A stretch of DNA of 64,000 nt from Actinobacillus vicugnae. Its GTDB lineage: Bacteria; Pseudomonadota; Gammaproteobacteria; Enterobacterales; Pasteurellaceae. The position numbers and the translations under genes are program-made. Where the stretch lies: the NCBI RefSeq assembly GCF_901687125.1, contig NZ_CABFJY010000033.1, positions 48,101 to 112,100 of the forward strand, written 5' to 3'. The notes under the pieces are model-generated. The model saw only the letters and a program-made list of their open reading frames with translations. It did not search any database and was not told the origin of the DNA. How positions within the stretch are numbered: the stretch's first letter is position 1; every line of letters begins with the position of its first letter. Shown piece by piece: positions 9,441 through 57,004 of the stretch.

Positions 9441-10322
9441 GCTTTTTGGTAATAACTCCCAAAATGCCTTGATAATGGGTTCTTGTAATCGTTTTTCTTG
9501 CACACAAATGCCTAGCTCGAATGGCGATATTGGTGCGGGCAATTTTAGATAGGAAATCTGATTATTCATTGGGCTGTGCTTAATCACCACATCGGGCAAT
9601 AATGCCACGCCACAACCTAACGCTACCATCGGTACAATCGCCTCATGGCCTGTAACCGTGGCATAAATATGCGGCTCTTTGATTTTTTGCTCTTTGAACC
9701 AACGGTCAATCCGCTTTCGAACAGGCCCATCAACAGGCAGAATAAACGGTACATTTTGCCAATCAATTGGCTGTTGCTGTAAACATTGCGTTGCCATGCA
9801 AGCTACGCGAGGCGCAATCACCGAAAGATGAATATCATCAATATAATGAAAAACAACACTATTTGGTAAATGCTCGGGTTTACCCGTTAAAGAAATATCT
9901 GCTTCAAAAGCATGTACCGTATTCACTGCTTGGGCAGGATCCCCCGTGCTAAGTTTAATTTCTACCTTAGGATAAGCTTGTCGAAAACGCTCTAAAATTT
10001 GCGGCAAATGACTATATGCTGCCGTTACCGAACAAAATACTTTCAGTTCCCCTTCTAATTCTCCCTGGGTAGGTGAAAGCTGACGCTGTAGTTGTTGCCA
10101 TTCCGACCAACTTTGTGTTGCAAAAATCAGAAATTTTTCGCCCGCTTCTGTTAAACGTACCTGGCGATTATCTCTAATCAATAACGGTTGCCCCAATTCC
10201 TCTTCAATGCGTTGAATATGGCGCGTGAGGGTCGAAGCGCTCATATAATTATTTTCAGCCGAACGAATAAAACTGCGTGTTTGGGCAATATCTAAAAACA
10301 ATTTAAGTGATTGGAATTCCAT
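9438..10322 (-). CDS. LysR-family transcriptional regulator
   Basis: N-terminal helix-turn-helix (LKLFLDIAQTRSFIRSAENNYMSASTLTRHIQRIEEELGQPLLIR) followed by a LysR substrate-binding domain. Its ATG directly abuts the stop of the upstream GT9 gene (TAAATG). Confidence 0.85.
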   Translation of the reverse strand: MEFQSLKLFLDIAQTRSFIRSAENNYMSASTLTRHIQRIEEELGQPLLIRDNRQVRLTEAGEKFLIFATQSWSEWQQLQRQLSPTQGELEGELKVFCSVTAAYSHLPQILERFRQAYPKVEIKLSTGDPAQAVNTVHAFEADISLTGKPEHLPNSVVFHYIDDIHLSVIAPRVACMATQCLQQQPIDWQNVPFILPVDGPVRKRIDRWFKEQKIKEPHIYATVTGHEAIVPMVALGCGVALLPDVVIKHSPMNNQISYLKLPAPISPFELGICVQEKRLQEPIIKAFWELLPKS

Positions 10323-11345
10323 TTAGTTGACCCATTCAGTTTTGATCTGACTAAAATCTAACTCATTAACACTTTGCTGAAAACGTAAAATATGCGTTTC
10401 CGCCTGATTATTCGGGTGCCAGTGAATAAAATTTTGCTGATCCGAGCTATAAAAACCAATAATTTTCTTAGATAGCCCTGAAGCGATATGCACCGTCGAA
10501 GTATCGGGAGAAATTAAAACATCTGCATGGCGAATTAATTCAATTGTATCAAACACCGTTTTAGTATTTTCATACACAAAAACATGTTCAAATTGGCTCG
10601 CAAGCTGTTTTAGTTTTGCAGTTACTTCAGGAAAAGTGAGTAAAACAATAGGTTTCACGCTATGTTTTCTCAAATAAGTAAGCAGTTCTATAATTTTACT
10701 ATCGCTAAAACGACGTGCCGAACCTGCTCCGAATAAGTTTAGCGCGATAAAATGGTTAAGCTGATTTTCCGCTAAATAAGTGTTAATTGCGTTAGCGCTT
10801 GCTTGATTTTGTGGCACTTCATAGCTGGTATCAATATTGCTAAACCCCGCCAGTTCTAGCGCTTGTTTATAGATCTGTGCAAAATGCTGTTGCTCATTTT
10901 TAACATTTAAACTAAACAACTTATAGTGTGACTTTTCATAGCCGATATAGCATTTCGCCTTAATTGTTCGTAAAAATAATAAATCTCTATTCCGCAACGT
11001 TACGGTAGGATCAATCAATAGATCATATTGTTCACGTGCCAATTGTTGGCCGCATTGAAGATAATCCGCAATGCTTTTGGTTTTCACTAAATATAATTGA
11101 TCTATATAAGGGTTATCCTCAAATAAATAAGCATTTTTATACGAACACACTACGCCAATATGAATTTCAGGAGATTGCTTTTTGATCTCTCGAAACACAA
11201 ATGAACTGACGATATAATCGCCAATTTTTCCATCTTGACGGAGGAATAGGATTTTTTTTAGTGGAAAAGGTTTGCTGCTGGCAGGATTTTTGATCTTTTT
11301 ATCTAAAAACAGCTTACCTAACGATAATCTAATCTTTCTTAACAT
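10323..11345 (-). CDS. GT9-family glycosyltransferase (LPS/LOS heptosyltransferase-like)
   Basis: The motif …KKILFLRQDGKIGDYIVSS…IGVVCS… is the typical GT9 N-terminus. The start among M1/M3/M6 is uncertain and the last candidate is used. The gene is AT-rich. Confidence 0.65.
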   Translation of the reverse strand: MLRKIRLSLGKLFLDKKIKNPASSKPFPLKKILFLRQDGKIGDYIVSSFVFREIKKQSPEIHIGVVCSYKNAYLFEDNPYIDQLYLVKTKSIADYLQCGQQLAREQYDLLIDPTVTLRNRDLLFLRTIKAKCYIGYEKSHYKLFSLNVKNEQQHFAQIYKQALELAGFSNIDTSYEVPQNQASANAINTYLAENQLNHFIALNLFGAGSARRFSDSKIIELLTYLRKHSVKPIVLLTFPEVTAKLKQLASQFEHVFVYENTKTVFDTIELIRHADVLISPDTSTVHIASGLSKKIIGFYSSDQQNFIHWHPNNQAETHILRFQQSVNELDFSQIKTEWVN

Positions 11346-11415
11346 TGCTTTCATATTCATTTTTACATACCATTATGCGAAATTTTTAGAGGCTCACACG
11401 GAATATATTATAGAG

Positions 11416-12447
11416 ATGAAATCTTTAGTGATAAAATTTTTTGGAACAAAAAAACATAAAAAACAGTTTTATTTTGCCAATATTCAATCCATTTTACTCA
11501 AACCCATTGGTGATGCCGTTGGTGATGCCATCGTACATACTTCTCATTTAAGGCAAATTAAAGAAGCGAATCCACATATCAAACTCGGTGTTTTAGTTAC
11601 TGAGCGAAATAAGTTAATCTACCAACATGCAGGATTTATTGATGCTATTTTAGATGAGTCTGTCTCAACTTATATACAAGAACACGCCAAATGGGATTTA
11701 TATCTCGATTTTATGCCGTCTTTTACCAGCAAAAGTATTTTTTGCGATTGGTTATTAGCACCTAAATTTAGTATAAACTTCGGAAAAAAAGAGAAAAAAC
11801 ATTATAATTTAAACACTGTAAAAAATTATGATTTTTCAACTCATATTCCCAAATACACACATATCAAAAACTATTTAAATTGCTCGATTATAAAAGATAA
11901 TATTAAATCTGATGCCGAATATATCGTTCCATTCAATTCAGAACAGGTTGAAAAAGTTGAAAAATTTTGGAATAAAAATAAATCATTACGTATTTTATTA
12001 AATCCTCAGGGTAGTAAAAATGAAATACCGCCAGCAGAATTAAAACAATTAATGGATAATATTCCTCAACATTATGTTGAAAAGATTGAGTTTTTACTCA
12101 CTAATACTCATGGTGCTCAAGAATATATTAATCGCTTAGGCATAAATTTAAAATTAAGCCCTAAAACGACTATTTTAGAATATTTTGCTTTTGTAAATTC
12201 TGCCGATATTGTTATTGCTGTAGATGGTGGCGGCGTTCATGTGGCTTGTGCCTGTGCAAAACCGTTATTGGCGTTCTATGCTAATAATCCTAAACTGACA
12301 AATATGTGGGCTCCTATCACTAAAAAAGGGGGGGATTCATTACTATTAGTGGGTAAAAATTTAGCTAATAATGCCAGTGAAACCTATAACTTTGATATTC
12401 AAGCTGCTTCCGAATGGCTAAATAATCAAATAAAAAAACATTTATAA
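11416..12447 (+). CDS. GT9-family glycosyltransferase (LPS/LOS glycosyl/heptosyltransferase-like), divergent from the previous gene
   Basis: From the internal ATG at 11416 the product begins MKSLVIKFFGTKKHKK…ILLKPIGDAVGDAIVHTS…, which is GT9-like. The region upstream of 11416 overlaps the divergent gene. The gene is very AT-rich and contains an A6G7 tract at 12322..12334. Confidence 0.6.
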   Translation: MKSLVIKFFGTKKHKKQFYFANIQSILLKPIGDAVGDAIVHTSHLRQIKEANPHIKLGVLVTERNKLIYQHAGFIDAILDESVSTYIQEHAKWDLYLDFMPSFTSKSIFCDWLLAPKFSINFGKKEKKHYNLNTVKNYDFSTHIPKYTHIKNYLNCSIIKDNIKSDAEYIVPFNSEQVEKVEKFWNKNKSLRILLNPQGSKNEIPPAELKQLMDNIPQHYVEKIEFLLTNTHGAQEYINRLGINLKLSPKTTILEYFAFVNSADIVIAVDGGGVHVACACAKPLLAFYANNPKLTNMWAPITKKGGDSLLLVGKNLANNASETYNFDIQAASEWLNNQIKKHL

Positions 12448-12454
12448 CTAAAAA

Positions 12455-12474
12455 GCTCCCTTTAAATAGGGAGC
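12455..12474 (+). terminator. Hairpin GCTCCCT-ttaaat-AGGGAGC after the GT9 gene
   Basis: 7-bp stem. The T-run after it is weak. Confidence 0.4.
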
Positions 12475-12675
12475 GTTATATTATTCTTTATCTCGTAAAT
12501 ACCAATTTTTTGATCCAAAATTTTCTTTCCCGCTATCTAAACATTTCTAATATTTAACGAACAGTATCAGTATCTACTATAGTTCTAGCGCCAAAAATAA
12601 TCTTTGGAAAAAGCTAAGTAAATTTTATCAATCGTTTTTTATTTTATCTAACGTTCCTTTTATCTCTCTAAAGCC

Positions 12676-12706
12676 TATAAAACAAAACCTCGCAATTGCG
12701 AGGTTT
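12676..12706 (-). terminator. rpmE terminator (AAACCTCGC-aatt-GCGAGGTTT followed by TTTTGTTTT on the minus strand)
   Basis: Perfect 9-bp stem plus a U-tract. Confidence 0.7.
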
Positions 12707-12723
12707 CGTCAATAATTCGGAAA

Positions 12724-12936
12724 TTATTTTGTGCTTGGGATTGAGAAACGTTTGTTGAAACGTTCAACACGACCACCAGTATCAACAACACGTTGTTTAC
12801 CAGTATAGAATGGGTGGCAGTTACCGCACACATCAAGATTTAAGTTTTTACCCACTGTTGAGCGAGTTTTGATTACGTTACCGCATGAACATGTTGCAGT
12901 AATTTCTGTATATTCTGGGTGAATACCTTGTTTCAT
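12724..12936 (-). CDS. rpmE: 50S ribosomal protein L31 (zinc-ribbon form)
   Basis: [20 protein letters not shown]…[13 protein letters not shown]…. Confidence 0.95.
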
Positions 12937-41712: not shown

Positions 41713-43644
41713 CTACTCTTCGCCTAATAATTTAAGTTCACGAGCCTTCACTTGGTTTTTTAGAATTTCAACAAATTCTTCAATAGTGAATGTGCCTAAA
41801 TCCGCACCTTTACGAGTACGTACCGATACTTTGCCCGCTTCGATTTCTTTATCGCCACAAACTAACATATACGGCACGCGGCGTAAGGTATGTTCACGTA
41901 CTTTAAAGCCCACTTTTTCGTTACGTAAGTCTGATTTCGCTCGGATACCTGCATCTGAAAGTGCTTTTGTCACTTTTTGTACATAATCCGCTTGGCTATC
42001 TGTAATATTCATCACCACCGCTTGTGTCGGTGCTAACCATGTTGGGAAGAAACCAGCGTACTCTTCAGTAATAATACCGATAAAGCGTTCGATTGAACCT
42101 AAAATCGCACGGTGAATCATCACTGGTGTACGACGACCATTATCTTCTGCAACATAAGAGGCATCTAAGCGACCTGGTAATGCGAAGTCTAACTGAATCG
42201 TACCGCATTGCCATTCACGATCTAAACAGTCACGTAATGCGAACTCAATTTTCGGACCATAGAATGCGCCTTCACCTTCTTGAATTTCATAACTTAAACC
42301 GTTCGCAGTTAACGCTTTCGCTAAACCGTCTTCCGCACGATCCCACATTGTATCTTCACCGATACGATTTTCAGGACGGGTCGAAAGTTTTACTTGAATA
42401 TTACTAAAGCCAAACGTGCTGTAAATGTCGTACACCATTTTGATACAGCTGGTTACTTCAGATTCAATTTGATCTTCAGTACAGAAAATATGCGCATCAT
42501 CTTGGGTAAAACCACGCACTCGCATTAAGCCGTGTAATGAACCTGATGGTTCGTTACGGTGGCACGAACCAAATTCTGCCATACGAATTGGTAAATCACG
42601 GTACGATTTTAAACCTTGGTTAAAGATTTGCACGTGACCTGGGCAGTTCATCGGTTTAATTGCATATTCACGGTTTTCAGATTGAGTGGTGAACATTAAA
42701 TCTGCATAGTTTTGCCAGTGACCTGTACGTTCCCAAAGCACTCGATCCATCATAAACGGACCTTTTACTTCTTGGTAATCGTACTCTTTTAATTTGGTAC
42801 GCACGAAAGTTTCAAGTTCACGGAAGATTGTCCAACCATCGTTGTGCCAGAACACCATACCTGGTGCTTCTTCTTGCATATGATATAAATCTAATGCTTT
42901 ACCAATACGGCGGTGGTCACGTTTTGCCGCTTCTTCTAAACGAGTTAAATATTCGCTTAATTGTTTTTTATCTGCCCACGCTGTGCCGTAAATACGTTGT
43001 AACATTTTATTTTTGCTATCGCCACGCCAATATGCACCCGCTACTTTTTGTAATTTAAAGTGATGGCAGAAACGCATATTTGGCACGTGAGGACCACGAC
43101 ACATATCAATATATTCTTGGTGATGATATAACGCTGGCGTTGCAGTGCGTTCAATATTTTCATCTAAAATCGCCATTTTGTATGGTTCGCCACGTTTTTC
43201 AAACGTATCACGTGCTTCTTGCCAGCTAACGCGTTTTTTTACAACGTCATAATTCGTTTTAGCCAGTTCAAGCATACGTTTTTCGATCGCATCTAAATCT
43301 TCTTGTGTGAGTGAGCGATCTAAATCTACGTCATAATAGAAACCATTGTCGATTGTCGGACCAATCGCCATTTTTACATCTGGGAATAATTGTTTGATCG
43401 CATGACCTAATAAGTGCGCACATGAGTGACGAATGATCTCTAAACCGTCTTCGTCTTTTGCCGTAATAATTTCAAGTGAGCTATCTTCAGAAATGAGGTC
43501 GCACGCATCACGGCGTTCGCCATTTACACGCCCTGCGATGGTTGCTTTTGCAAGCCCTGCACCGATTGAAAGAGCTACTTCCATGACAGAAACAGGATTA
43601 TCAAATTGGCGTTGTGAGCCGTCTGGTAAAGTGATAATAGGCAT
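41713..43644 (-). CDS. thrS: threonine--tRNA ligase
   Basis: [28 protein letters not shown]… is the TGS domain. Class II motifs follow. AAGGAT lies upstream of the ATG at 43644. Confidence 0.95.
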
Positions 43645-43861
43645 TTTTATATCCTTGTTACAGTGGTCACCCATACGAGAGGTGACTTGTTGGTTTAAAA
43701 ATAAAAACCGCTTACAAGCGGTCTAATTTGAATCGTTTTTTACAATTTGTTTTACATCACCCCAACCATGGATGAATCGCAAAACGAGTGAATTTTATCA
43801 CAAATTCTCAATAAGCGGTCTTATTTATCCGCTAATTTGCAAAATTTCTATAAAAATTTAG

Positions 43862-43890
43862 GCTTCACTGCCGTATAGGCAGCTTCGAGA
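43862..43890 (+). CRISPR. Solitary, degenerate type I-F CRISPR repeat with no spacers
   Basis: CTTCACTGCCGTATAGGCAGCTTCGAGAAA contains 21 consecutive nt identical to the I-F consensus GTTCACTGCCGTA(T/C)AGGCAGCT. This includes the Cas6f hairpin CTGCC-GTATA-GGCAG. It lies 80 bp upstream of cas1. No second copy is found anywhere in the window. Confidence 0.6.
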
Positions 43891-43971
43891 AAAAAAAACT
43901 AATTTATTTCGGTGCGCTTGCCCTTTCATTACCATAGTGGCAATTTAAATTATAAATGACAAGGAGCTTGT

Positions 43972-44928
43972 ATGAAAAAAACACCTTATATTCCTTCTTC
44001 AGATTTAAAAACAATTTTACATTCTAAACGTGCAAATATTTATTATTTAGAACATTGTCGAATCTTGTTGAACGGGGGGCGAGTTGAATATGTTACAGAT
44101 CAGGGAAGCGAGTCACTTTATTGGAATATTCCTATTGCAAATACTACTTGTCTGCTATTAGGAAGCGGAACATCTGTCACGCAAGCAGCTATGCGTGAAT
44201 TATCCAAAGCAGGAGTGATGGTTGGCTTTTGTAGCGGCGGAGGTACACCACTATTCAATAGCACAGAAGCCGAAATTGGTTGTGATTTTTTTAGCCTTCA
44301 AAGTGAATATCGTCCTGTCGAATACCTACAGCAATGGTGTCAATTTTGGTTTGATAACGATAAGCGGTTAAATTCGGCAAAAACATTGCAATTACTTCGT
44401 TTACAATTACTGCTCCGTACATGGAATAAATTTGATTGGGAATATTCTCAAACAAAACTTACGGAGCTAGTACAGCAATATCAAGCAGAATTTACTCAAG
44501 CAAAAGATAGTCAATCGCTATTAGCCGCAGAAGGGCGTTTAACCGCTAAGTTATATGCATTAGCCAATCAGGCAACAGTTAATGACGAAGATTTTAAAAG
44601 AGAAAGTGGAAAAGAAGGTGCAAATCAATTTTTAGATCATGGAAATTATTTAGCTTACGGACTCGGTGCAACAGCTTGTTGGGTATTAGGTTTATCGCAT
44701 GGATTAGCGGTATTACATGGAAAAACGCGTCGCGGAGGATTAGTATTTGATGCGGCAGATATTATTAAAGATGCTATGATTCTACTTCAAGCATTTATCT
44801 CTGCCCAAAATGGAGATAATGAAAAACAATTTCGTCAAACTTGTATTAATAATCTACTTCGGTTTGAAGCACTAGATATTATCATCAATACGCTTAAACA
44901 ATTAGCTGCTGAAGGCGCCAACTCATGA
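43972..44928 (+). CDS. cas1: CRISPR-associated endonuclease Cas1, subtype I-F
   Basis: …LKTILHSKRANIYYLEHCRILLNGGRVEYVTDQG…NIPIANTTCLLLGSGTSVTQAAMRELSKAGVMVGFCSGGGTPL…GLAVLHGKTRRGGLVFDAADIIKD… is collinear with Yersinia/Pseudomonas I-F Cas1. The AAGGAG SD is present and the stop overlaps the cas2/3 start (ATGA). Confidence 0.9.
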   Translation: MKKTPYIPSSDLKTILHSKRANIYYLEHCRILLNGGRVEYVTDQGSESLYWNIPIANTTCLLLGSGTSVTQAAMRELSKAGVMVGFCSGGGTPLFNSTEAEIGCDFFSLQSEYRPVEYLQQWCQFWFDNDKRLNSAKTLQLLRLQLLLRTWNKFDWEYSQTKLTELVQQYQAEFTQAKDSQSLLAAEGRLTAKLYALANQATVNDEDFKRESGKEGANQFLDHGNYLAYGLGATACWVLGLSHGLAVLHGKTRRGGLVFDAADIIKDAMILLQAFISAQNGDNEKQFRQTCINNLLRFEALDIIINTLKQLAAEGANS

Positions 44929-47900
44929 ATATTTTATTGATTAGCCAATGTCATAAAAATGCACTTACTGAAACAAGACGTATATTAGATCAATTTGCCG
45001 AGCGTTGTGGTGAACGCTGTTGGCAAACGGCAATTACCCAAGTTGGATTAGAAACCCTTCATTCGATGTTACGTCAAACCGCGCGCAAAAATACTGCTGT
45101 GGCGTGCTATTGGACACATGGCAAAAACTTAACTGAATTATTGTGGATTGTTGGCGATAAAAGCCAATTTAATACCGAAGGGCGAGTGCCAACTAATCGA
45201 ACTAAGCGGAATATCTTGCGTACCGAGGATGAAAACGGTTGGTTAAGTGCATATTCTATCCAAATCTTGACCGCTATTGCGGCATTGCTACATGATATTG
45301 GCAAAGCGAATCTCGCCTTCCAGCAAAAATTAAAACCTAAAGCGAAATTTTTCCCTGATTGTTATCGACATGAATGGATTTCTGCTCGCTTATTCGAAGC
45401 GATGATTGCAGGTTGTACAACAGATGAACAATGGCTCACCCGTTTAGCAAATTGGCAAGGCTATGTTGAATCTAATCCTCATTGGCTACCAAACCTCACA
45501 TTAAATGCCGACAAACATGATTTTCTGCATAATTTTTCTCATTTTCCACCGCTTGCAAAAGCGATTTTGTGGCTTATTCTTTCACATCACAAATTGCCTT
45601 TTACTCAAAAAACGCTCAATTGCCATCGTGATCAAGAACATATTCTAAGGGAACATTTTATAACCAAGACCGCAGTAGTTCCCTTCTATTGCTTTTTAGC
45701 ACCTGTAGAACATTGGGTGATGAATTATAGCGAGCATCCTCATCCAGAAAATTTTTGGCAATTTGCAACATTACCGATGGAAAGCAAATCTTGGCAAAAA
45801 GCAATGCAACGTTGGGCGAATAAGGCGCTTAATCATGCACCGTTGCGTGACCTATCTTTACTGAACCAAACAATTAACGATCCTTTTCTACTACTTTTAT
45901 CACGTTTGTGCTTAATTGTTGGCGATCATCATTACTCTTCTGTGCCAGCTGATCGCCAGTTAGGTGATATGCTTTTTTTTGAAAAATTAATTGCAAATAC
46001 CGATAGAAAAACGAAACATCCAAAACAAGCACTTGATGAACACTTACTTGGCGTTTGTAAAACCAGTGCAAAATTTGCCCGCTTGTTACCTAAATTATCG
46101 AAAGCATTACCAACTGTTCAGCAACATCGTCCGTTTATGAAACGGACAAATGTTGAGCGTTTTAAATGGCAAAATAAAGCATTTGAATTAGCTCAAACGT
46201 TACAAGTTGAAAGTGACCAAGCAGGCTTTTTCGGGGTAAATATGGCAAGTACAGGGCGAGGCAAAACGCTCGCTAACGCAAAAATCATGTATGGATTAAC
46301 AGCCCCTAAAAAAGGCGCTCGCTTCACTATTGCACTTGGTTTACGTGTATTAACCCTACAAACAGGTATCTCGCTTCGACAAAAGCTCATGCTGTCATCC
46401 GAACAACTTGCCGTTTTAGTTGGGGGAGCAGCTAATAGGGAATTATTTGAATTACAACATGAAGCTGAAATGGCAACGTATGGCAGTGAAAGCGCTCAAG
46501 CTTGGTTAAATGAAAATGAAATTTATGGCATGAATTTTACTGAAAATGGAATAGATAAAAATGCATTTGGTACAATCTTAGTCGATAAGAAGGCTCAATA
46601 ACTCCTCTACGCTCCCATTGTAAGCTGTACCTTAGATCATTTGGTTCAAGCAAGTGAAACCATTCGAGGAGGTAAACATATTGTCCCTACTTTACGTTTA
46701 CTCACGTTAGATCTTGTATTAGATGAACCCGATGATTTTAGCCAAAATGATCTACCTGCTCTCAGCCGTTTAGTACATTTAGCGGGTATGTTTGGTAGCA
46801 AGGTCTTATTGTCTTCCGCCACACTCACACCCGATCTGATTATTGGGCTGTTTAATGCTTATCAAGCAGGGCGAAAAATTTATAATCGTCATCAAGCTAT
46901 TAACACCGAATCGGCTATCTGTTGCGCTTGGTTTGATGAGTATAAACAGCAACAACAGCAATGCGCTACCGCCAATGATTTCGAACAGCTACATCACCAA
47001 TTTACCCTCGCACGAGCAGAAAAATTGGCACAAGCTCCTGTACGCCATAGAGCTGAAATTATCCAGCTCCCTGCACTTTCGTCTATAGAAAATCAAGGGC
47101 TGGATTACACTACACTCGGAAACACATTACTTGAGCACGCCATCACTTTACACCATAGATATGCCCAACAAGATTCGGTTTCTCAAAAATATGTGAGTAT
47201 TGGTCTTATCCGCTTTTCAAATATTAGACCGATGATCCCTTTAGCTAAAAGATTATTTAACCTGCCTTTAAATAGTCAATTTAGCCAGTATAAAATACAT
47301 TTATGTTGCTACCACTCTCGTCAGCTACTAATGCTACGCTCTGAACTAGAAGAAAAGCTAGATAGAATCTTAAATCGTAATGACCCTAACTTGCTTTTTT
47401 CTCAACCAGAAATTGCTAGCGCACTTATGCAAGATCAGGCTACTCATCATATCTTTATTGTATTAGGCAGCCCTGTAACAGAAGTTGGTAGAGATCACGA
47501 TTATGATTGGGCGATCGTTGATCCTTCTTCTATGCGATCTATCATTCAACTTGCAGGGCGGGTATGGCGACATCGTTCAGAAAAAATCGCAAACCAAGCT
47601 AATATTTTCCTATTACCAACCAATTGGAAAGGGCTAAAAAATCGAAATAAGGGTTTGGATCCTATTTTTTATCGCCCAGGTTTTGAAGATAAGAATAACA
47701 AATTAGCAAGTCACAAAACTGTTGATTTAATTCATCCTGAGCATTTAGATCAGATAAATGCCATTCCTCGCATCATAAAAGCAGAGAGATTACAGCCACA
47801 AAACAATTTGGCGGATTTAGAACATAACGTTATTGCAGATTTATTAAACAATAAAGAAATTAATCGAGTAAATGCCTATTGGAAAGACGATTTAACCAAT

Positions 47901-48281
47901 AGGATAAATGCTAATTTGCCACTTATCACTCCGTTTAGGAGAAATGAAGGACAATGGCAAACAGATATAGTGTGCTTGCCAAGTGAACAAAATGAATGGG
48001 GATTTATCTTTAAAACGAAAGAAAAAGCTTGGGAAAACCCGAATGACGAAAGTAATTATTTACCTGAAATCCGCTACCAAAAACTGGAAAATCGCTCTCC
48101 ATGGGTCACACCATGGCTTACAACACCTTTAAATCAAGCACTTACCCAACTAGGGGAACAACTTGACGAACAGGATCTCATTCAGGTCGCACTACGTTTT
48201 GCAACAATTTCGCTCCAACATTACGGTAAAGAATTACCTATTTGGCGATTTAATGAAAGCTTAGGCTTTTGGCAGGAGTAG
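44925..48281 (+). pseudogene. cas3: cas2/3 (Cas2-Cas3 fusion, subtype I-F) interrupted by one in-frame TAA at 46599..46601
   Basis: Track ORFs 44925..46601 and 46641..48281 are in the same frame (both ≡0 mod 3). Translating through the TAA gives …VDKKAQ*LLYAPIVSCTLDHLVQASETIRGGKHIVPTLRLL…, which aligns without a gap to the I-F Cas2/3 helicase region. The Cas2 N-terminus, HD motifs (HDIGK, SHHK, GDHHYSS), Walker A (ASTGRGKTL) and DExD (LDEPDD) are all intact. Confidence 0.85.
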
Positions 48282-48369
48282 TAAGCGGTCACATTTGCTT
48301 AAAATTTTGCATATCTTATCGATAAAAAAAAGGATAGAATTCTGAAGTTGTTATTTTGTGAGTAGAAAG

Positions 48370-49257
48370 ATGAAATCCCCAAAACGATTTTTTGAATGTA
48401 TTGCGATTGTAGGTAAACCTCGCCATGATATTGCCTTAGAGACACATTTGGCAGTTTATAATTGGCTAAAAGATCGCCATTACAGCGTATTATTAGAAAA
48501 AAATATCGCCCAACAACTAAACCTCCCTGATGGCAAAACTTTAGATGAAATTGGTCAGCAGGCTAATTTAGTAATTGTGATAGGCGGTGACGGAAATATG
48601 CTTGGAATGGCGCGCCAATTGGCTAAATATCGTATTCCACTGATTGGTATTAATCGTGGAAATTTAGGTTTCCTGACCGATATTGCACCACAATCTGCTT
48701 TCGAACAGTTGCACAATTGTATTGAGCGTGGTGAATATGTAATTGAAGAACGTTTCTTGCTTGAAGCCCGTATTGAACGTAACGGTAAAATTATTGCGAG
48801 CAATAATGCGCTAAATGAAGTGGTGATTCATCCCTCACAAGTAGCGAGAATTATTGAATTTGAAGTTTATATTGATGGCAAATTTGCTTTTTCACAACGT
48901 TCAGACGGGCTAATTATTAGCACGCCAACGGGTTCAACTGCTTATTCATTATCTGCTGGCGGACCAATTTTAACGCCAAATATGAATGCAATCGCACTGG
49001 TGCCAATGCATCCCCACACGCTTTCTTCTCGACCGCTAGTTATTGATGGCGATAGCCAAATTTCTTTGCGCTTTGCTCAACATAATCAACCTAGCCTAGA
49101 AGTGAGTTGTGATGGTCAATACGATATGCCGTTTACACCTGAAGATCGTATCATCGTCACCAAAAGCCCTGACCCACTACATTTATTGCATCTAAAAGAT
49201 TATAACTATTTCACCGTGCTAGGCTCTAAACTAGGTTGGTCTAGCAAACTATTTTAA
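48370..49257 (+). CDS. nadK: NAD+ kinase
   Basis: …[11 protein letters not shown]…GGDGNMLG…[10 protein letters not shown]… is collinear with E. coli NadK. The ATG at 48370 is preferred over the GTG at 48358. Confidence 0.9.
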
Positions 49258-50745: not shown

Positions 50746-50930
50746 TCCTCCCCTGCTTAAAGGCAGGGGATTCCTACTAGCTCCCACGACTTTGTCGTGG
50801 GCTACTCTCGGTGGGTTCTTGTTGCTGATGGCTAATGCCATTCACTTCACAAGCTAACTGGACGTGTCCCGCCCTTAATACATTCATTGCTCCAACCACG
50901 TCCGCATTTTCACGCCAGCCACATTCCACA
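50746..50930 (-). ncRNA. Putative TnpB omega-RNA (reRNA) scaffold overlapping the tnpB 3' end and right end
   Basis: Inferred from the general architecture of IS200/IS605 TnpB loci together with the two stable hairpins at and just beyond the tnpB stop. The extent is not measurable from sequence alone. Confidence 0.3.
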
Positions 50931-52000
50931 CATTCAAATTTCGCCTGTGTTTGGCGATTTTCTTTGGCAATATGCCCACAACTCGGGCAAGTGCGACTGG
51001 TATTTTTCGGATTAACCGCAACTAAATAACCACCCTGCCAAGCGGATTTGTATTCCAACTGACGGCGGAACTCAAACCAACCCTGATCTAAAATCGAACG
51101 GTTTAATCCCGATTTTGGGGCAACATTTTTGCCCTGTTGCTCGGCTGTTCCTTTGGCTGATTTGCTCATATTCACCACCTGCAAATCTTCAATGAAGATC
51201 ATTGCGTGGTTTTTGCTGATTTCTGTTGAGATTTTATGCAAGTAGTCCTGACGAGCATTGCGGATTTTGTGATGGATTTTGCTGACTTTTGCTTTCTGTT
51301 TCAGCCAGTTTTGGCTAAATTTCACTTTTCGGCTTAATGATTGTTGTGCCTTTCTTAGGCTTTCTTGATGTTTTTTGAAACTGTTTAACGGTTCAAAAAA
51401 TTTGCCATTGGAGAGTGTCGCAAAACGTGCCACGCCCATATCTATGCCGATTTCTGAACCCTGATGTTGCGGTATTTCCTGTTCAAATTCCGTTTGAATG
51501 CTCACAAAAAATTTACCGCATTTTTTGCTTACGGTTACATTTTTAACTTCACCTACAATTTCACGGCTATTACGATAGCGAACCCAACCGATTTTTGGTA
51601 GATACAAGCGGTCATTTGTCTGCTCAATTTTGCAACCTTGCGGATAGCGAAAACTGTCTTTTACGCCTTTTTTCTTGAATTTAGGAAAGTCTGATCGCTT
51701 GCTGAAAAAGTTACGGTAAGCACTTTCTAAATCTTTAAGAGACTGTTGCAACACTTGGCTATGGCAGGCTTTCAACCACTCAAATTCTTTTTTCCATTGA
51801 GGCAAAAAGTTCGCTAATTTGGTGTAGCTAAATTTGATTTTCGGATCTTGTTCGTACGCCTGTTTTTGCCAATCCAACGCCTTATTAAACACAAAACGAG
51901 AACAACCACAAAATTGTGCAATTTTGCGTTGCTGTTCTCCATTTGGTCTAATTTCAAATTTAAAGGCTTTACGAATGAGCATAGGTATCCGATAATTCAA
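50777..52000 (-). CDS. tnpB: IS605-family transposase-accessory protein TnpB (OrfB; RNA-guided endonuclease, RuvC-like plus zinc finger)
   Basis: 407 aa. Zinc finger CPSCGH…CVECG. Typical OrfB N-terminal and central regions. Confidence 0.9.
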   Translation of the reverse strand: MNYRIPMLIRKAFKFEIRPNGEQQRKIAQFCGCSRFVFNKALDWQKQAYEQDPKIKFSYTKLANFLPQWKKEFEWLKACHSQVLQQSLKDLESAYRNFFSKRSDFPKFKKKGVKDSFRYPQGCKIEQTNDRLYLPKIGWVRYRNSREIVGEVKNVTVSKKCGKFFVSIQTEFEQEIPQHQGSEIGIDMGVARFATLSNGKFFEPLNSFKKHQESLRKAQQSLSRKVKFSQNWLKQKAKVSKIHHKIRNARQDYLHKISTEISKNHAMIFIEDLQVVNMSKSAKGTAEQQGKNVAPKSGLNRSILDQGWFEFRRQLEYKSAWQGGYLVAVNPKNTSRTCPSCGHIAKENRQTQAKFECVECGWRENADVVGAMNVLRAGHVQLACEVNGISHQQQEPTESSPRQSRGS

Positions 52001-52026
52001 ATTTTCAACAATTATACACTTGGTCT

Positions 52027-52443
52027 ATGGAAAAAGAAATGGATATTAGACGTGGTCGCCACGTTGTTTTTAATTTACATGTTCACTTAGTCTTCGTTAC
52101 CAAATATCGCAGACACGTTTTCACAAAAGCCATTCTTGATGATTTAAAACTGATTTTTGAGAATGTTTGTCGTGATTTTGAAGCTGAACTTGTCGAGTTT
52201 GACGGAGAAGACGATCACGTTCATTTGCTTGTGAATTACCCTCCCAAAGTCGCTATTTCAAATTTGGTGAATAGTCTGAAAGGTGTTTCAAGTCGAATGA
52301 TTAGACAGAAGAATTATCCCACAATTAAGCAAAAATTATGGGGAAATGCTCTGTGGTCTCCATCTTACTTTGCAGGAAGTTGCGGTGGTGCTCCTATCTC
52401 AATTATTCGCCAATACATCGAACAGCAAAAAACACCTGATTAG
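52027..52443 (+). CDS. tnpA: IS200/IS605-family Y1 (HuH) transposase TnpA
   Basis: 138 aa. HuH motif (HVHLVF / DHVHLLV) and the catalytic Tyr region. Confidence 0.9.
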   Translation: MEKEMDIRRGRHVVFNLHVHLVFVTKYRRHVFTKAILDDLKLIFENVCRDFEAELVEFDGEDDHVHLLVNYPPKVAISNLVNSLKGVSSRMIRQKNYPTIKQKLWGNALWSPSYFAGSCGGAPISIIRQYIEQQKTPD

Positions 52444-52685: not shown

Positions 52686-53060
52686 ATGAAAAAATCAGCT
52701 ATTTTAAGCACTATTTTATTCCTCTCAGCGCCAGTATTCGCTGGTTTTCAAGATAACAATGCAACAGCAAATCAAGGTGGCTTTAGTGGCAAAGGAGCAA
52801 AAACAGCTCCGACAACCGTTGCACAAGCCCACAAAGCGTGGGACGATACGCCAGTAACTCTCACGGGTTATATTACGAAGCAAATTGATCATGATGAATT
52901 CTATTTCAAAGATGCTACAGGAGAGATCAAAATCGAAGTAGAAGATCACGCTTGGAATGGGCAAAACATCACTCCAAAAGATAAAATAACTATCCAAGGC
53001 AAAGTGGATAAAAACGATTCGGGTAAATCAACAATCGACGTATATCACATTAAAAAATAA
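52686..53060 (+). CDS. ygiW: YgiW/YdeI (BOF, OB-fold) periplasmic stress protein
   Basis: Signal peptide. …VAQAHKAWDDTPVTLTGYITKQIDHDEFYFKDATGEIKIEVEDHAWNGQNITPKDKITIQGKVDKN… matches the YgiW family. Confidence 0.75.
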   Translation: MKKSAILSTILFLSAPVFAGFQDNNATANQGGFSGKGAKTAPTTVAQAHKAWDDTPVTLTGYITKQIDHDEFYFKDATGEIKIEVEDHAWNGQNITPKDKITIQGKVDKNDSGKSTIDVYHIKK

Positions 53061-53083
53061 TTTTAGTTTTCTGGGAGTTTAAG

Positions 53084-53443
53084 ATGAAAAAACTAACAAT
53101 TATCTCAACATTAATCGCAACAACCTTATTAGTAGCTTGCTCTACCCCACCTGTTCAAAATCAAACTTTCGGGGCTAATCGCACCAATGCTGTAACAGTT
53201 GCACAAGCAAAATCGTTACATGACGATAGCCGTGTAAGCTTAGAAGGCAAAATTCTGCGCCAAGTAGATCATGATGAATATATTTTTGCAGATAGCACAG
53301 GCGATATTAAAATCGAAATTGATGATCACGTTTGGAATGGTTTAAACGTAACACCAAATGATAACATTCGTATTCAAGGTAAATTAGATAAAGAAACCTT
53401 CCATTCATCAATTGATGTCTACACGATCGAAAAAGTACAATAA
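53084..53443 (+). CDS. second YgiW/BOF-family paralogue (lipoprotein-type signal LVACS)
   Basis: …VAQAKSLHDDSRVSLEGKILRQVDHDEYIFADSTGDIKIEIDDHVWNGLNVTPNDNIRIQGKLDK… is a tandem paralogue of the previous gene. Confidence 0.75.
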   Translation: MKKLTIISTLIATTLLVACSTPPVQNQTFGANRTNAVTVAQAKSLHDDSRVSLEGKILRQVDHDEYIFADSTGDIKIEIDDHVWNGLNVTPNDNIRIQGKLDKETFHSSIDVYTIEKVQ

Positions 53444-55678: not shown

Positions 55679-56832
55679 TTAGAATACAAATGCGTTACTG
55701 TATTCTGGATAAGTTACGGTTGAAATTTCTGATATTGGCACAAGCAGATCATTGTAACCAGAAGGCTCAATAATCACATCAGGAATTTGTGTACCTTTAT
55801 CAATTGGCATTGCAGGCGGTAAATTTAGTAATTCAGATAAATCTTCTACGCTATAAACTTGTGAAAAACCTGTTCCAAACACAAATTTTGAAATCGCAGT
55901 AGTCTCACCATTATTTGAATACTGATCATGAATAATAATGAAATGATCGGTATCATCCACATGGATTTCCCAAGTCGTATTCCCGAGATCATTTTCCGTA
56001 ATATAAACTTTTAAATCTTCGGGACGAATACCATTACCAAATTGCAGAGTATTTTCGCCTTGTGAATCGAAAATATGGTCTTGACCAGCACCTTTATAGA
56101 AGTAATAGGTGTCGTTACCCTCACCGCCATATAAAGCATCATTGCCATTACCGCCATTTAGCCAATCTGCTCCCGTTGAACCATATAGCGTATCATCGCC
56201 ATCCCCTCCTAATAATCGGTCATTACCTGCTCCACCATTAAGCGTATCATTACCATACCCACCGCTGATAAAGTCATTACCATTTAAACCATGAATCGTA
56301 TCATCTGCATAAGTACCAAACAGACTATCCGCACCATCTGTACCGAATATAATGCGATTGCTTGAAGTTAAATCTTGTACATCAAAATGAATGGTGTACT
56401 TATCAGTATAAATAGGTGAACTACTCATGCCATTTGCTTCAACGTGGAATTTCACATGAATTCTAGCATCCACAGCATCTGGTGAATTTGGTAAGAAATA
56501 AAGACGGCTATGTTCCGTATTTCTTAACTCGCTATATACCCAGCTGTTATTGTTTGAATCATTAATCTCACGATAATTGCCATCATTGCTAACAAGCAAT
56601 AAACGTCCGCCACTAATGTCATCAAACACAATACGGTCTTTATAACTTGGAGGAGATACCCAATGATTAATTAATACTAATGTGGCTTGATCATCATCAA
56701 TCACAACTTGTCGCAGAATTTGGACAGGAATACTGGATGCAGGGGTTAGTGATAATGGGTTAGATCCATTATTTCCCCCATGGTATAAATTGTAACCCTC
56801 ATTCCCAAAATTAAAATTGTCAAAAGCCATAA
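55679..56832 (-). CDS. RTX-repeat (haemolysin-type Ca2+-binding) protein, a likely T1SS substrate with no adjacent T1SS genes
   Basis: About 8 tandem GGxGxDxLx nonapeptides (…GTDGADSLFGTYADDTIHGLNGNDFISGGYGNDTLNGGAGNDRLLGGDGDDTLYGSTGADWLNGGNGNDALYGGEGNDTYYF…). There is no N-terminal signal peptide. The ATG at 56832 has AAGGAA upstream, whereas the track start at 56905 has none. Confidence 0.7.
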
Positions 56833-57004
56833 TATATTCCTTATGTAAAGTGGAAGGAAATTGAACAATATAAAACTTATGCTCAAAAAACCAGCCTGAC
56901 CACAACAGGCACGGCTAGATCCTGTTCAGGTTCGGAGCAATTTTGCTACAGCCTGATAAATTACTCTCTATAATTTACACAACATTTATTAACCACAAAA
57001 AAAT

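What the first reader, a model, noticed from the sequence alone, without database searches (positions are those of the whole stretch)
46590..46650. Single in-frame ochre codon (TAA 46599..46601) splits an otherwise intact cas2/3
Both halves are in the same frame. The 13 codons between the TAA and the track's second ORF (LLYAPIVSCTLDH) continue the Cas3 helicase alignment. All catalytic motifs (HD, Walker A/B) are preserved. The options are very recent pseudogenisation, a sequencing or assembly error, strain-level polymorphism, or low-level readthrough. The truncated product would retain Cas2 + HD nuclease + RecA1 motif I only.
Basis: seen in the sequence. Interest (0 to 1): 0.6.

Follow-up and report, generated by a model that had tools for sequence, protein, structure and literature searches.

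The report
Broken cas2/3 in decayed CRISPR locus
A single stop codon really does cut the cas2/3 gene in two, but the gene sits in a CRISPR-Cas locus that has already lost its four interference genes and nearly all of its spacer array, so this is an ordinary, very recent step in the decay of a dead immune system.

Summary
TAA at 46599..46601 is the only lesion in a 1118-codon type I-F cas2/3 (44925..48281). It replaces a codon that is AAA (Lys) in the closest relatives and a sense codon in all 61 related loci checked. The rest of the gene looks selected: 247 of 249 near-invariant family positions are kept, dN/dS against A. equuli is 0.07-0.09 in both halves, and there is no rate excess downstream of the stop. 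The mutation is therefore very recent, or an error.

The window comes from Actinobacillus vicugnae. In A. equuli, A. pleuropneumoniae and A. lignieresii the same site reads thrS | csy1-4 | leader + 15-37 repeats | cas1 | cas2/3 | nadK. Here about 5.7 kb is gone: csy1-4, the leader and most of the array. What remains is one repeat, one spacer and a degenerate terminal repeat in front of cas1. Without a Csy complex or a leader, cas2/3 has no partner and no evident selection to keep it.

Independent cas2/3 lesions also occur in one A. pleuropneumoniae strain and one A. lignieresii strain. The best reading is a genuine nonsense mutation in a decaying locus. A sequencing error cannot be excluded, but it would not revive the system. 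Low interest; a known phenomenon.

The parts
41713..43644 (-). thrS, the conserved left flank of the locus
   Evidence: Pfam tRNA-synt_2b, TGS and anticodon-binding domains. 99.2% aa identity to A. equuli ThrS. Exact match to WP_150539539.1 of A. vicugnae.
43645..43857 (+). Remaining part of the thrS-csy1 intergenic region. Homology to relatives stops abruptly at 43857.
   Evidence: Aligns to A. equuli L081 3020-3232 at about 93% identity. The next 190 nt of the A. equuli spacer region and csy1 itself are missing.
43858..43862 (.). Deletion junction (TTAGG). About 5.7 kb present in relatives is absent here: csy1, csy2, csy3, csy4, the CRISPR leader and most repeat-spacer units.
   Evidence: tblastn with A. 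equuli Csy1-4 finds nothing in the 64-kb window. The conserved clade leader is absent.
43863..43890 (+). Surviving type I-F CRISPR repeat, CTTCACTGCCGTATAGGCAGCTTCGAGA. It has 2 mismatches to the clade consensus, both in the 3' handle.
   Evidence: the DNA search. Rfam CRISPR-DR4 at 34.3 bits, E 1.2e-4. Alignment to the clade consensus.
43891..43922 (+). Single remaining 32-nt spacer, AAAAAAAACTAATTTATTTCGGTGCGCTTGCC
   Evidence: It lies between two repeats spaced 60 nt apart, the same period as the clade arrays. It has no second match in the window.
43923..43950 (+). Degenerate terminal repeat, 21 nt upstream of the cas1 ATG
   Evidence: 19 of 28 positions match the consensus with two 1-nt gaps, exactly one period after the first repeat. 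Only 0.02% of random 28-mers from the window score as well. The geometry matches the A. equuli terminal repeat, which lies 20 nt before cas1.
43972..44928 (+). cas1 (type I-F), intact, 318 aa
   Evidence: Pfam Cas_Cas1. 91-92% identity to Cas1f of A. pleuropneumoniae, A. lignieresii and A. equuli. dN/dS 0.04. Exact match to WP_150539540.1.
44925..48281 (+). cas2/3 (cas3f) pseudogene: 1118 codons with one internal stop
44925..46601 (+). Translatable N-terminal ORF of 558 aa. It holds the Cas2 domain (aa 1-79), the HD nuclease (HDIGK, aa 123-127) and the start of RecA1 with Walker A (aa 441-448).
46599..46601 (+). Ochre codon TAA at codon 559. The ancestral codon was most likely AAA (Lys), changed by an A-to-T transversion at 46599.
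   Evidence: The codon is AAA in A. equuli (L081, L082) and A. ureae (L007). It is a sense codon in 61 of 61 related loci. It is Lys in 26 of the 30 closest proteins.
46602..48281 (+). Part of cas2/3 that is no longer translated: motif Ib region, Walker B/DExD (46719..46736), motifs III-VI, RecA2 and the C-terminal domain
   Evidence: It shows no sign of neutral drift: dN/dS 0.07, and unique amino-acid changes are 30 in the window against 32 in A. equuli.
48370..49257 (+). nadK, the conserved right flank. The cas2/3-nadK junction is as in relatives.
   Evidence: Pfam NAD_kinase. 94.6% identity to A. equuli NadK. Same gene order in L081 and L083-L091.

Best explanation
[quoted passage not shown] The change is most likely AAA (Lys559) to TAA. 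Relative to the arrangement conserved in sister species (thrS | csy1-csy4 | leader + array | cas1 | cas2/3 | nadK), a deletion of about 5.7 kb removed all four Csy (Cascade) genes, the CRISPR leader and all but the two trailer-end repeats. Without Cas6f there is no crRNA processing. Without the Csy complex nothing recruits Cas2/3 to a target. Without the leader new spacers cannot be integrated in the normal way. cas1 and cas2/3 are thus orphans under relaxed selection, and the ochre codon is the first disabling hit they have taken. Translation stops inside RecA1, after motif I but before the DExD box. The product is a 558-aa Cas2-HD fragment that cannot hydrolyse ATP or translocate. Shown: the stop, the deletion, the mini-array, and the otherwise selected state of the gene. 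Inferred: that the mutation is real rather than an assembly error, the order of the two events, and the loss of function.
For: The stop and frame are confirmed. The ancestral codon is a sense codon in 61 of 61 loci, and AAA in the nearest ones. The synteny with csy1-4 and an array between thrS and cas1 is seen in A. equuli, in eight A. pleuropneumoniae loci and in A. lignieresii. Arrays there hold 14-36 exact repeat cores, 15-37 repeats with the degenerate terminal copy. The window has no Csy homologue anywhere, only one good repeat plus one degenerate repeat, and no leader. There is a sharp homology breakpoint at 43857. dS of cas1 (1.2) and cas2/3 (1.6) against A. equuli lies in the range of the flanking genes (0.6-2.1). 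The locus is therefore ancestral at this site and the gene loss is derived. The gene is otherwise under selection: 247 of 249 near-invariant columns are kept, within the range of intact homologues. dN/dS is 0.09 and 0.07 for the two halves. Tajima relative-rate counts are 52 v 50 overall and 30 v 32 downstream of the stop. From the count of stop-creating sites, one lesion in cas1 + cas2/3 corresponds to roughly 0.5% neutral divergence or less. The assembly is not error-ridden. The other 11 genes compared in the syntenic block, and ten large genes elsewhere in the window, are full length. Comparable independent lesions exist in relatives: nonsense at codon 666 in A. pleuropneumoniae CP190093 and a +1 frameshift in A. 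lignieresii UFRM01000001. There is precedent in the same family: deletions and nonsense mutations of cas genes in non-competent A. actinomycetemcomitans (PMC3484387). RefSeq appears to give cas2/3 no protein record. The 558-aa ORF exists only as an unnamed call, while ThrS, Cas1 and GlyA carry WP_150539539, WP_150539540 and WP_150539542.
Against: Only one genome of the species is available, so neither reads nor other alleles could be inspected. A single-base assembly error would look identical. cas1 and cas2/3 carry no other lesion. That fits a very recent deletion, but it would equally fit continued selection on them. Only 64 kb of the genome was visible, so a csy operon or further arrays elsewhere cannot be formally excluded.
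Confidence: 0.82

Rival explanations
1. Sequencing or assembly error. The true codon is AAA (or CAA) and cas2/3 is intact in the organism. It would still be an orphan without csy1-4.
For: The gene has exactly one lesion and otherwise looks fully selected, which is what an error in an intact gene would look like. The source is a draft assembly with a 186-kb contig, and no second genome is available.
Against: The change is a base substitution, not a homopolymer indel, which is the usual assembly artefact. No other gene in the window shows a break. The loss of the partner genes gives a biological reason for a real lesion. Real lesions of the same gene occur in complete genomes of sister species. 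By my own rough estimate, consensus substitution errors of about 1e-5 per base or less give about 0.2% chance of a spurious stop in a gene of this size. That figure is inference, not measured here.
Confidence: 0.1
2. Adaptive inactivation. The stop, and perhaps the deletion, was selected because an active or partly active I-F system was costly. Possible costs are autoimmunity from self-targeting spacers, interference with DNA uptake in a naturally transformable Pasteurellaceae, or toxicity of an unregulated Cas2/3 nuclease-helicase once the Csy complex was gone.
For: cas2/3 is hit independently in A. pleuropneumoniae CP190093 and A. lignieresii while their csy1-4 and arrays remain intact, so cas2/3 can be the first gene to go. 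A link between CRISPR-cas loss and transformation is documented in the family (PMC3484387).
Against: cas2/3 is simply the largest mutational target in the locus: 505 stop-creating changes against 169 in cas1. It is intact in 11 of the 12 A. pleuropneumoniae loci where the whole gene was read. The one remaining spacer has no target in the window. Nothing here distinguishes selection from drift.
Confidence: 0.12
3. Functional expression despite the stop, either by low-level readthrough of UAA giving full-length Cas2/3, or by two separately made polypeptides (N-terminal 558 aa plus a reinitiated C-terminal part) that reassemble, as in naturally split Cas3'/Cas3''.
For: Both halves are in frame and undamaged. 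A TTG lies 13 codons after the stop.
Against: No relative has a stop here. There is no significant RNA structure downstream (z = -0.71). UAA is the most efficiently terminated codon in bacteria (general knowledge). No Shine-Dalgarno sequence precedes TTG 46641 (sequence). The break lies inside RecA1 between motifs I and II, not at the HD/helicase boundary where natural splits occur. Without csy1-4 and a leader the product would have no system to serve.
Confidence: 0.02

Closest known systems
Type I-F CRISPR-Cas 'variant' locus of Actinobacillus pleuropneumoniae, A. lignieresii and A. equuli (csy1-4, CRISPR, cas1, cas2/3 between thrS and nadK; described as universal in A. pleuropneumoniae in PMC8942016 and PMC12242098)
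   Same: Same chromosomal site and flanks. Same repeat, CTTCACTGCCGTATAGGCAGCTTAGAAA, with 2 mismatches. Cas1 is 91-92% identical and Cas2/3 79% identical. A terminal degenerate repeat lies about 20 nt before cas1.
   Different: The window lacks csy1-4, the conserved leader and all but two repeats, and its cas2/3 carries an internal stop.
Pseudomonas aeruginosa Cas2/3 (PDB 5B7I, 5GQH, 8FLJ)
   Same: The two align end to end (query 1-1115) at E 1.5e-262. They share the Cas2-HD-RecA1-RecA2-CTD architecture and motifs.
   Different: Codon 559 is a stop here. It aligns to a variable residue just before the conserved LLxAPIxxCTxDH segment of RecA1.
Decayed CRISPR-cas loci of non-competent Aggregatibacter actinomycetemcomitans (Jorth & Whiteley 2012, PMC3484387)
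   Same: Same bacterial family. The same combination of cas-gene deletions and nonsense mutations, with a small residual array retained.
   Different: Competence status of A. vicugnae was not examined. This is a single genome rather than a set of lineages.
Independent cas2/3 lesions in A. pleuropneumoniae CP190093 (nonsense at codon 666) and A. lignieresii UFRM01000001 (+1 frameshift at nt 992)
   Same: The same gene in the same locus is inactivated by a single small mutation.
   Different: The sites and mutation types differ. In those genomes csy1-4 and arrays of 18 and 14 exact repeat cores are still present.
Naturally split Cas3' (helicase) and Cas3'' (HD) of some type I subtypes
   Same: Cas3 functions are encoded as two polypeptides.
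   Different: Natural splits fall between the HD and helicase domains, and each gene has its own start signal. Here the break lies inside RecA1 and is a stop codon in an otherwise fused gene (knowledge of the natural splits is from memory).

Membership tests
Cas2/3 (Cas3f) of type I-F | N-terminal Cas2 domain fused to Cas3 | tested here: met
   Pfam PF21384 Cas3_I-F_Cas2, aa 1-79, E 4.9e-43.
Cas2/3 (Cas3f) of type I-F | HD nuclease domain with the HD motif | tested here: met
   Pfam Cas3_HD, aa 112-328. HDIGK at aa 123-127, aligned to 5B7I.
Cas2/3 (Cas3f) of type I-F | SF2 helicase motifs I, II (DExD), III and VI, plus the C-terminal domain, at sequence level | tested here: met
   Motifs located. 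247 of 249 near-invariant family columns are retained. Pfam Cas3-like_C_2.
Cas2/3 (Cas3f) of type I-F | One uninterrupted reading frame of about 1100 codons | tested here: not met
   TAA at codon 559. All 120 best homologues are 1093-1167 aa and cover 100% of the query.
Complete type I-F CRISPR-Cas system | cas1 present and intact | tested here: met
Complete type I-F CRISPR-Cas system | Interference genes cas8f/csy1, cas5f/csy2, cas7f/csy3 and cas6f/csy4 | tested here: not met
   tblastn with A. equuli Csy1-4 gives no hit in the 64-kb window. They are deleted from their conserved position. The rest of the genome was not visible.
Complete type I-F CRISPR-Cas system | CRISPR array of 28-nt repeats with a leader | tested here: not met
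   Only one good repeat and one degenerate repeat around one spacer. The conserved leader is absent.
Programmed stop-codon readthrough or recoding | Stop codon conserved among relatives | tested here: not met
   A sense codon in 61 of 61 related loci.
Programmed stop-codon readthrough or recoding | Stimulatory RNA structure downstream of the stop | tested here: not met
   MFE -17.9 kcal/mol, z = -0.71 against shuffles.
Split Cas3'/Cas3'' | Break at the HD/helicase domain boundary, with an independent start signal for the second gene | tested here: not met
   The break lies between helicase motifs I and II. No Shine-Dalgarno sequence precedes TTG 46641 (sequence).

The most novel reading that the evidence does not exclude
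The orphan pair cas1 + cas2/3 has been kept by selection after the loss of csy1-4 for a non-immune role, such as DNA repair or recombination. In that case the ochre codon is either leaky or yields a functional Cas2-HD nuclease fragment that still pairs with Cas1. The complete absence of other lesions in 4.3 kb is the only hint in this direction.
Probability: 0.03. Interest if true: 0.5.

Novelty: already known. Interest (0 to 1): 0.12.

Why it matters
It matters little beyond annotation. The locus should be recorded as a non-functional type I-F remnant (cas1, cas2/3 pseudogene, two-repeat mini-array) rather than as a CRISPR-Cas system with one damaged gene. It adds one data point to a known pattern in Pasteurellaceae, where CRISPR-Cas loci are lost piecemeal through deletions and point mutations. 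Together with the independent lesions seen in A. pleuropneumoniae and A. lignieresii, it suggests that cas2/3 is a frequent early casualty. That idea could be examined in the many available A. pleuropneumoniae genomes.

Tried and rejected
- **Exact-protein look-ups.** I looked up the N-terminal ORF, Cas1, GlyA, ThrS and the histidine kinase to fetch the source contig or other strains. None is in the gene-position index.
- **Metagenome scan.** An exact pattern around the site, with N at the mutated base, gave 0 hits.
- **Genome-collection scan.** The read-through protein found no locus closer than 75% identity; no A. vicugnae locus was returned.
- **A. ureae ATCC 25976 (L007).** It looked like a third independent break, but it is a gapped draft with N runs over cas1 and upstream, so I do not count it.
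- **Self-targeting.** The remaining spacer has no other match in the window.
- **Shared spacer with relatives.** None was found.
- **Relaxed selection or long decay of cas2/3.** Rejected by the conserved-column, dN/dS and relative-rate tests.
- **Recent horizontal acquisition of cas1-cas2/3 alone.** Rejected because dS matches the flanking genes, and the thrS-csy1 spacer region and trailer repeats are still in place.
- **Promoter scan.** No plus-strand sigma-70-like site lies between thrS and cas1. This is weak evidence only.
- **Readthrough structure.** None was found.

Full report
**Observation.** The sequence reads ...AAG GCT CAA TAA CTC CTC TAC..., with TAA at 46599..46601. The ORFs 44925..46601 (558 aa) and 46641..48281 share a frame. 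A straight translation of 44925..48281 gives 1118 codons with a single internal stop at codon 559.

Pfam places the type I-F Cas2 domain (aa 1-79, E 4.9e-43) and the Cas3 HD domain upstream of the stop, and the Cas3 C-terminal domain downstream. The read-through sequence aligns end to end with P. aeruginosa Cas2/3, PDB 5B7I, at E 1.5e-262. HD (aa 123-127) and Walker A (aa 441-448) precede the stop. The DExD box (aa 599-604) and motifs III, V and VI follow it.

**What the codon was.** In 30 aligned homologues the position is Lys in 26. At DNA level the codon is AAA in A. equuli and A. ureae, and a sense codon in all 61 related loci where the flanking motif could be found: AAA/AAG, CAA/CAG, GAT/GAC and a few others. 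TAA is one substitution from AAA (A to T) or from CAA (C to T).

**State of the rest of the gene.** Three tests show no sign of decay.
- Among 249 alignment columns that are at least 97% conserved in 120 homologues, the window departs at only two (R223K, R708H). Intact homologues depart at 0-8.
- dN/dS against A. equuli is 0.09 for the half before the stop and 0.07 for the half after it. cas1 gives 0.04 and the flanking housekeeping genes 0.01-0.06.
- Tajima relative-rate counts with seven outgroups show no excess of unique amino-acid changes in the window lineage. With one outgroup the counts are 52 v 50 overall and 30 v 32 downstream of the stop.

The downstream half has therefore not drifted as untranslated DNA for any measurable time. 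Counting stop-creating single-base changes gives 505 in cas2/3 and 169 in cas1. One lesion in the pair is expected after roughly 0.5% neutral divergence or less, and less still once indels are included.

Downstream of cas2/3 come nadK and glyA, then an IS200/IS605 element. There are no csy genes. A search for the canonical I-F repeat finds a single copy at 43863..43890, between thrS and cas1. Rfam CRISPR-DR4 scores it at 34.3 bits.

The closest Cas2/3, from A. equuli at 79% identity, lies in a locus with the same flanks. It reads DUF4810, CsgG, thrS | csy1, csy2, csy3, csy4 | 27-repeat array | cas1 | cas2/3 | nadK, glyA, BOF genes, response regulator, histidine kinase, RTX-type protein, galT, galK. 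The same arrangement holds in eight A. pleuropneumoniae loci and in A. lignieresii, where the arrays hold 14-36 exact repeat cores, or 15-37 repeats once the degenerate terminal copy is counted. It matches the published 'new variant' of type I-F that is universal in A. pleuropneumoniae (PMC8942016; PMC12242098).

tblastn with the A. equuli proteins recovers every flanking gene in the window, but nothing for Csy1-4.

**The deletion junction.** The window's thrS-cas1 spacer region aligns to the A. equuli thrS-csy1 spacer region up to 43857. Five bases later the repeat begins. A 32-nt spacer follows, and then, exactly one 60-nt period after the first repeat, a degenerate copy at 43923..43950 that ends 21 nt before the cas1 ATG. 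Only 0.02% of random 28-mers from the window match the consensus as well. In A. equuli the terminal degenerate repeat lies 20 nt before cas1. The leader, which is almost invariant across the clade, is absent from the window.

About 5.7 kb has therefore been lost: csy1-4, the leader and all but the two trailer-end repeats. dS for cas1 and cas2/3 (1.2 and 1.6) lies within the range of the flanking genes (0.6-2.1). The locus was inherited vertically at this site, and the loss is derived in this lineage.

**Source.** The histidine kinase of the window is 100% identical to WP_150539548.1 of Actinobacillus vicugnae. ThrS, Cas1 and GlyA are exact matches to WP_150539539, WP_150539540 and WP_150539542 on one 186,213-bp contig. 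The 558-aa ORF is in the collection only as an unnamed, accession-less call on that contig. This suggests that RefSeq treats cas2/3 as a pseudogene, which is an inference.

**Mechanism.** Steps that follow from established knowledge of type I-F systems:
- Cas6f (Csy4) processes the pre-crRNA.
- The Csy complex finds the target and recruits Cas2/3.
- Spacer integration by Cas1-Cas2/3 needs the leader-repeat junction.

All three prerequisites are missing here. cas2/3 has no function left to select for, and a nonsense mutation is the expected next event. The truncated product ends inside RecA1, before the DExD box, so it cannot hydrolyse ATP (inference). The order of the deletion and the stop cannot be determined from this genome. 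Because cas1 and cas2/3 together carry only one lesion, both events must be recent.

**Rivals.**
- *Assembly error.* This would look the same and cannot be excluded. However, the change is a substitution, and the other 11 genes compared in the syntenic block, along with ten large genes elsewhere in the window, are unbroken. Real lesions of the same gene also occur in finished genomes of sister species: nonsense at codon 666 in A. pleuropneumoniae CP190093 and a +1 frameshift in A. lignieresii UFRM01000001.
- *Selected inactivation.* Those two cases, where csy1-4 and the arrays are intact, allow the idea that cas2/3 loss is sometimes selected. But cas2/3 is simply the largest target in the locus, and it is intact in 11 of the 12 A. 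pleuropneumoniae loci where the whole gene was read.
- *Readthrough or a functional split.* This has no support. No relative has a stop here. There is no downstream RNA structure. No ribosome-binding site precedes the TTG. The break falls inside a domain.

**Comparison and verdict.** This combination of cas-gene deletion, nonsense mutation and a tiny residual array has been described in the same family, in non-competent A. actinomycetemcomitans (PMC3484387). A disrupted cas8f has been noted in one A. pleuropneumoniae strain. The finding is real, correctly described and ordinary: a pseudogene in a CRISPR-Cas remnant. Interest is low.

Noticed in passing
window 50777..52443: An IS200/IS605-family element, tnpB (407 aa, minus strand, 50777..52000) and tnpA (138 aa, 52027..52443), sits between glyA and the BOF genes. 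It is absent at this site in A. equuli. A. pleuropneumoniae carries a different, rve-type IS immediately after glyA, so this position looks like an insertion hot spot.
   Followed up: partly
L086 10954..14301 (A. pleuropneumoniae CP190093.1) and L087 10954..14302 (A. lignieresii UFRM01000001.1): There are independent cas2/3 lesions in relatives whose csy1-4 and arrays are intact: an in-frame stop at codon 666 in L086, and a +1 insertion at nt 992 in L087. cas2/3 is intact in 11 other A. pleuropneumoniae loci.
   Followed up: partly
window 44925..48281 compared with 43972..44928 and the flanks: Cas2/3 is only 79% identical to A. equuli, while Cas1 is 92% and the flanking housekeeping proteins 94-99%. 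Yet dN/dS is 0.08 and there is no rate asymmetry. This points to a fast-evolving but constrained protein, not a decaying one.
   Followed up: yes
window 43705..43724, 43812..43822, 48284..48293: Uptake-signal-like motifs of the Actinobacillus type (ACAAGCGGTC / TAAGCGGTC) flank the cas remnant. The pair at 43705..43724 is inverted and scores as a terminator-like hairpin on the minus strand just upstream of thrS. It is conserved in A. equuli.
   Followed up: no
window 52686..53443: There are two BOF-family (PF04076) paralogues here, against three in A. equuli and A. lignieresii. One copy is missing next to the IS element.
   Followed up: no
window 55679..56905 (minus strand): An RTX/hemolysin-type calcium-binding repeat protein is only 62% identical to its A. 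equuli counterpart. It contains imperfect 27-nt tandem repeats at 56111..56311.
   Followed up: no
L007 (A. ureae ATCC 25976) 10001..12930: cas2/3 appears broken near codons 379-395. The scaffold has N runs over cas1 and the upstream region, so this may be a draft-assembly artefact.
   Followed up: partly
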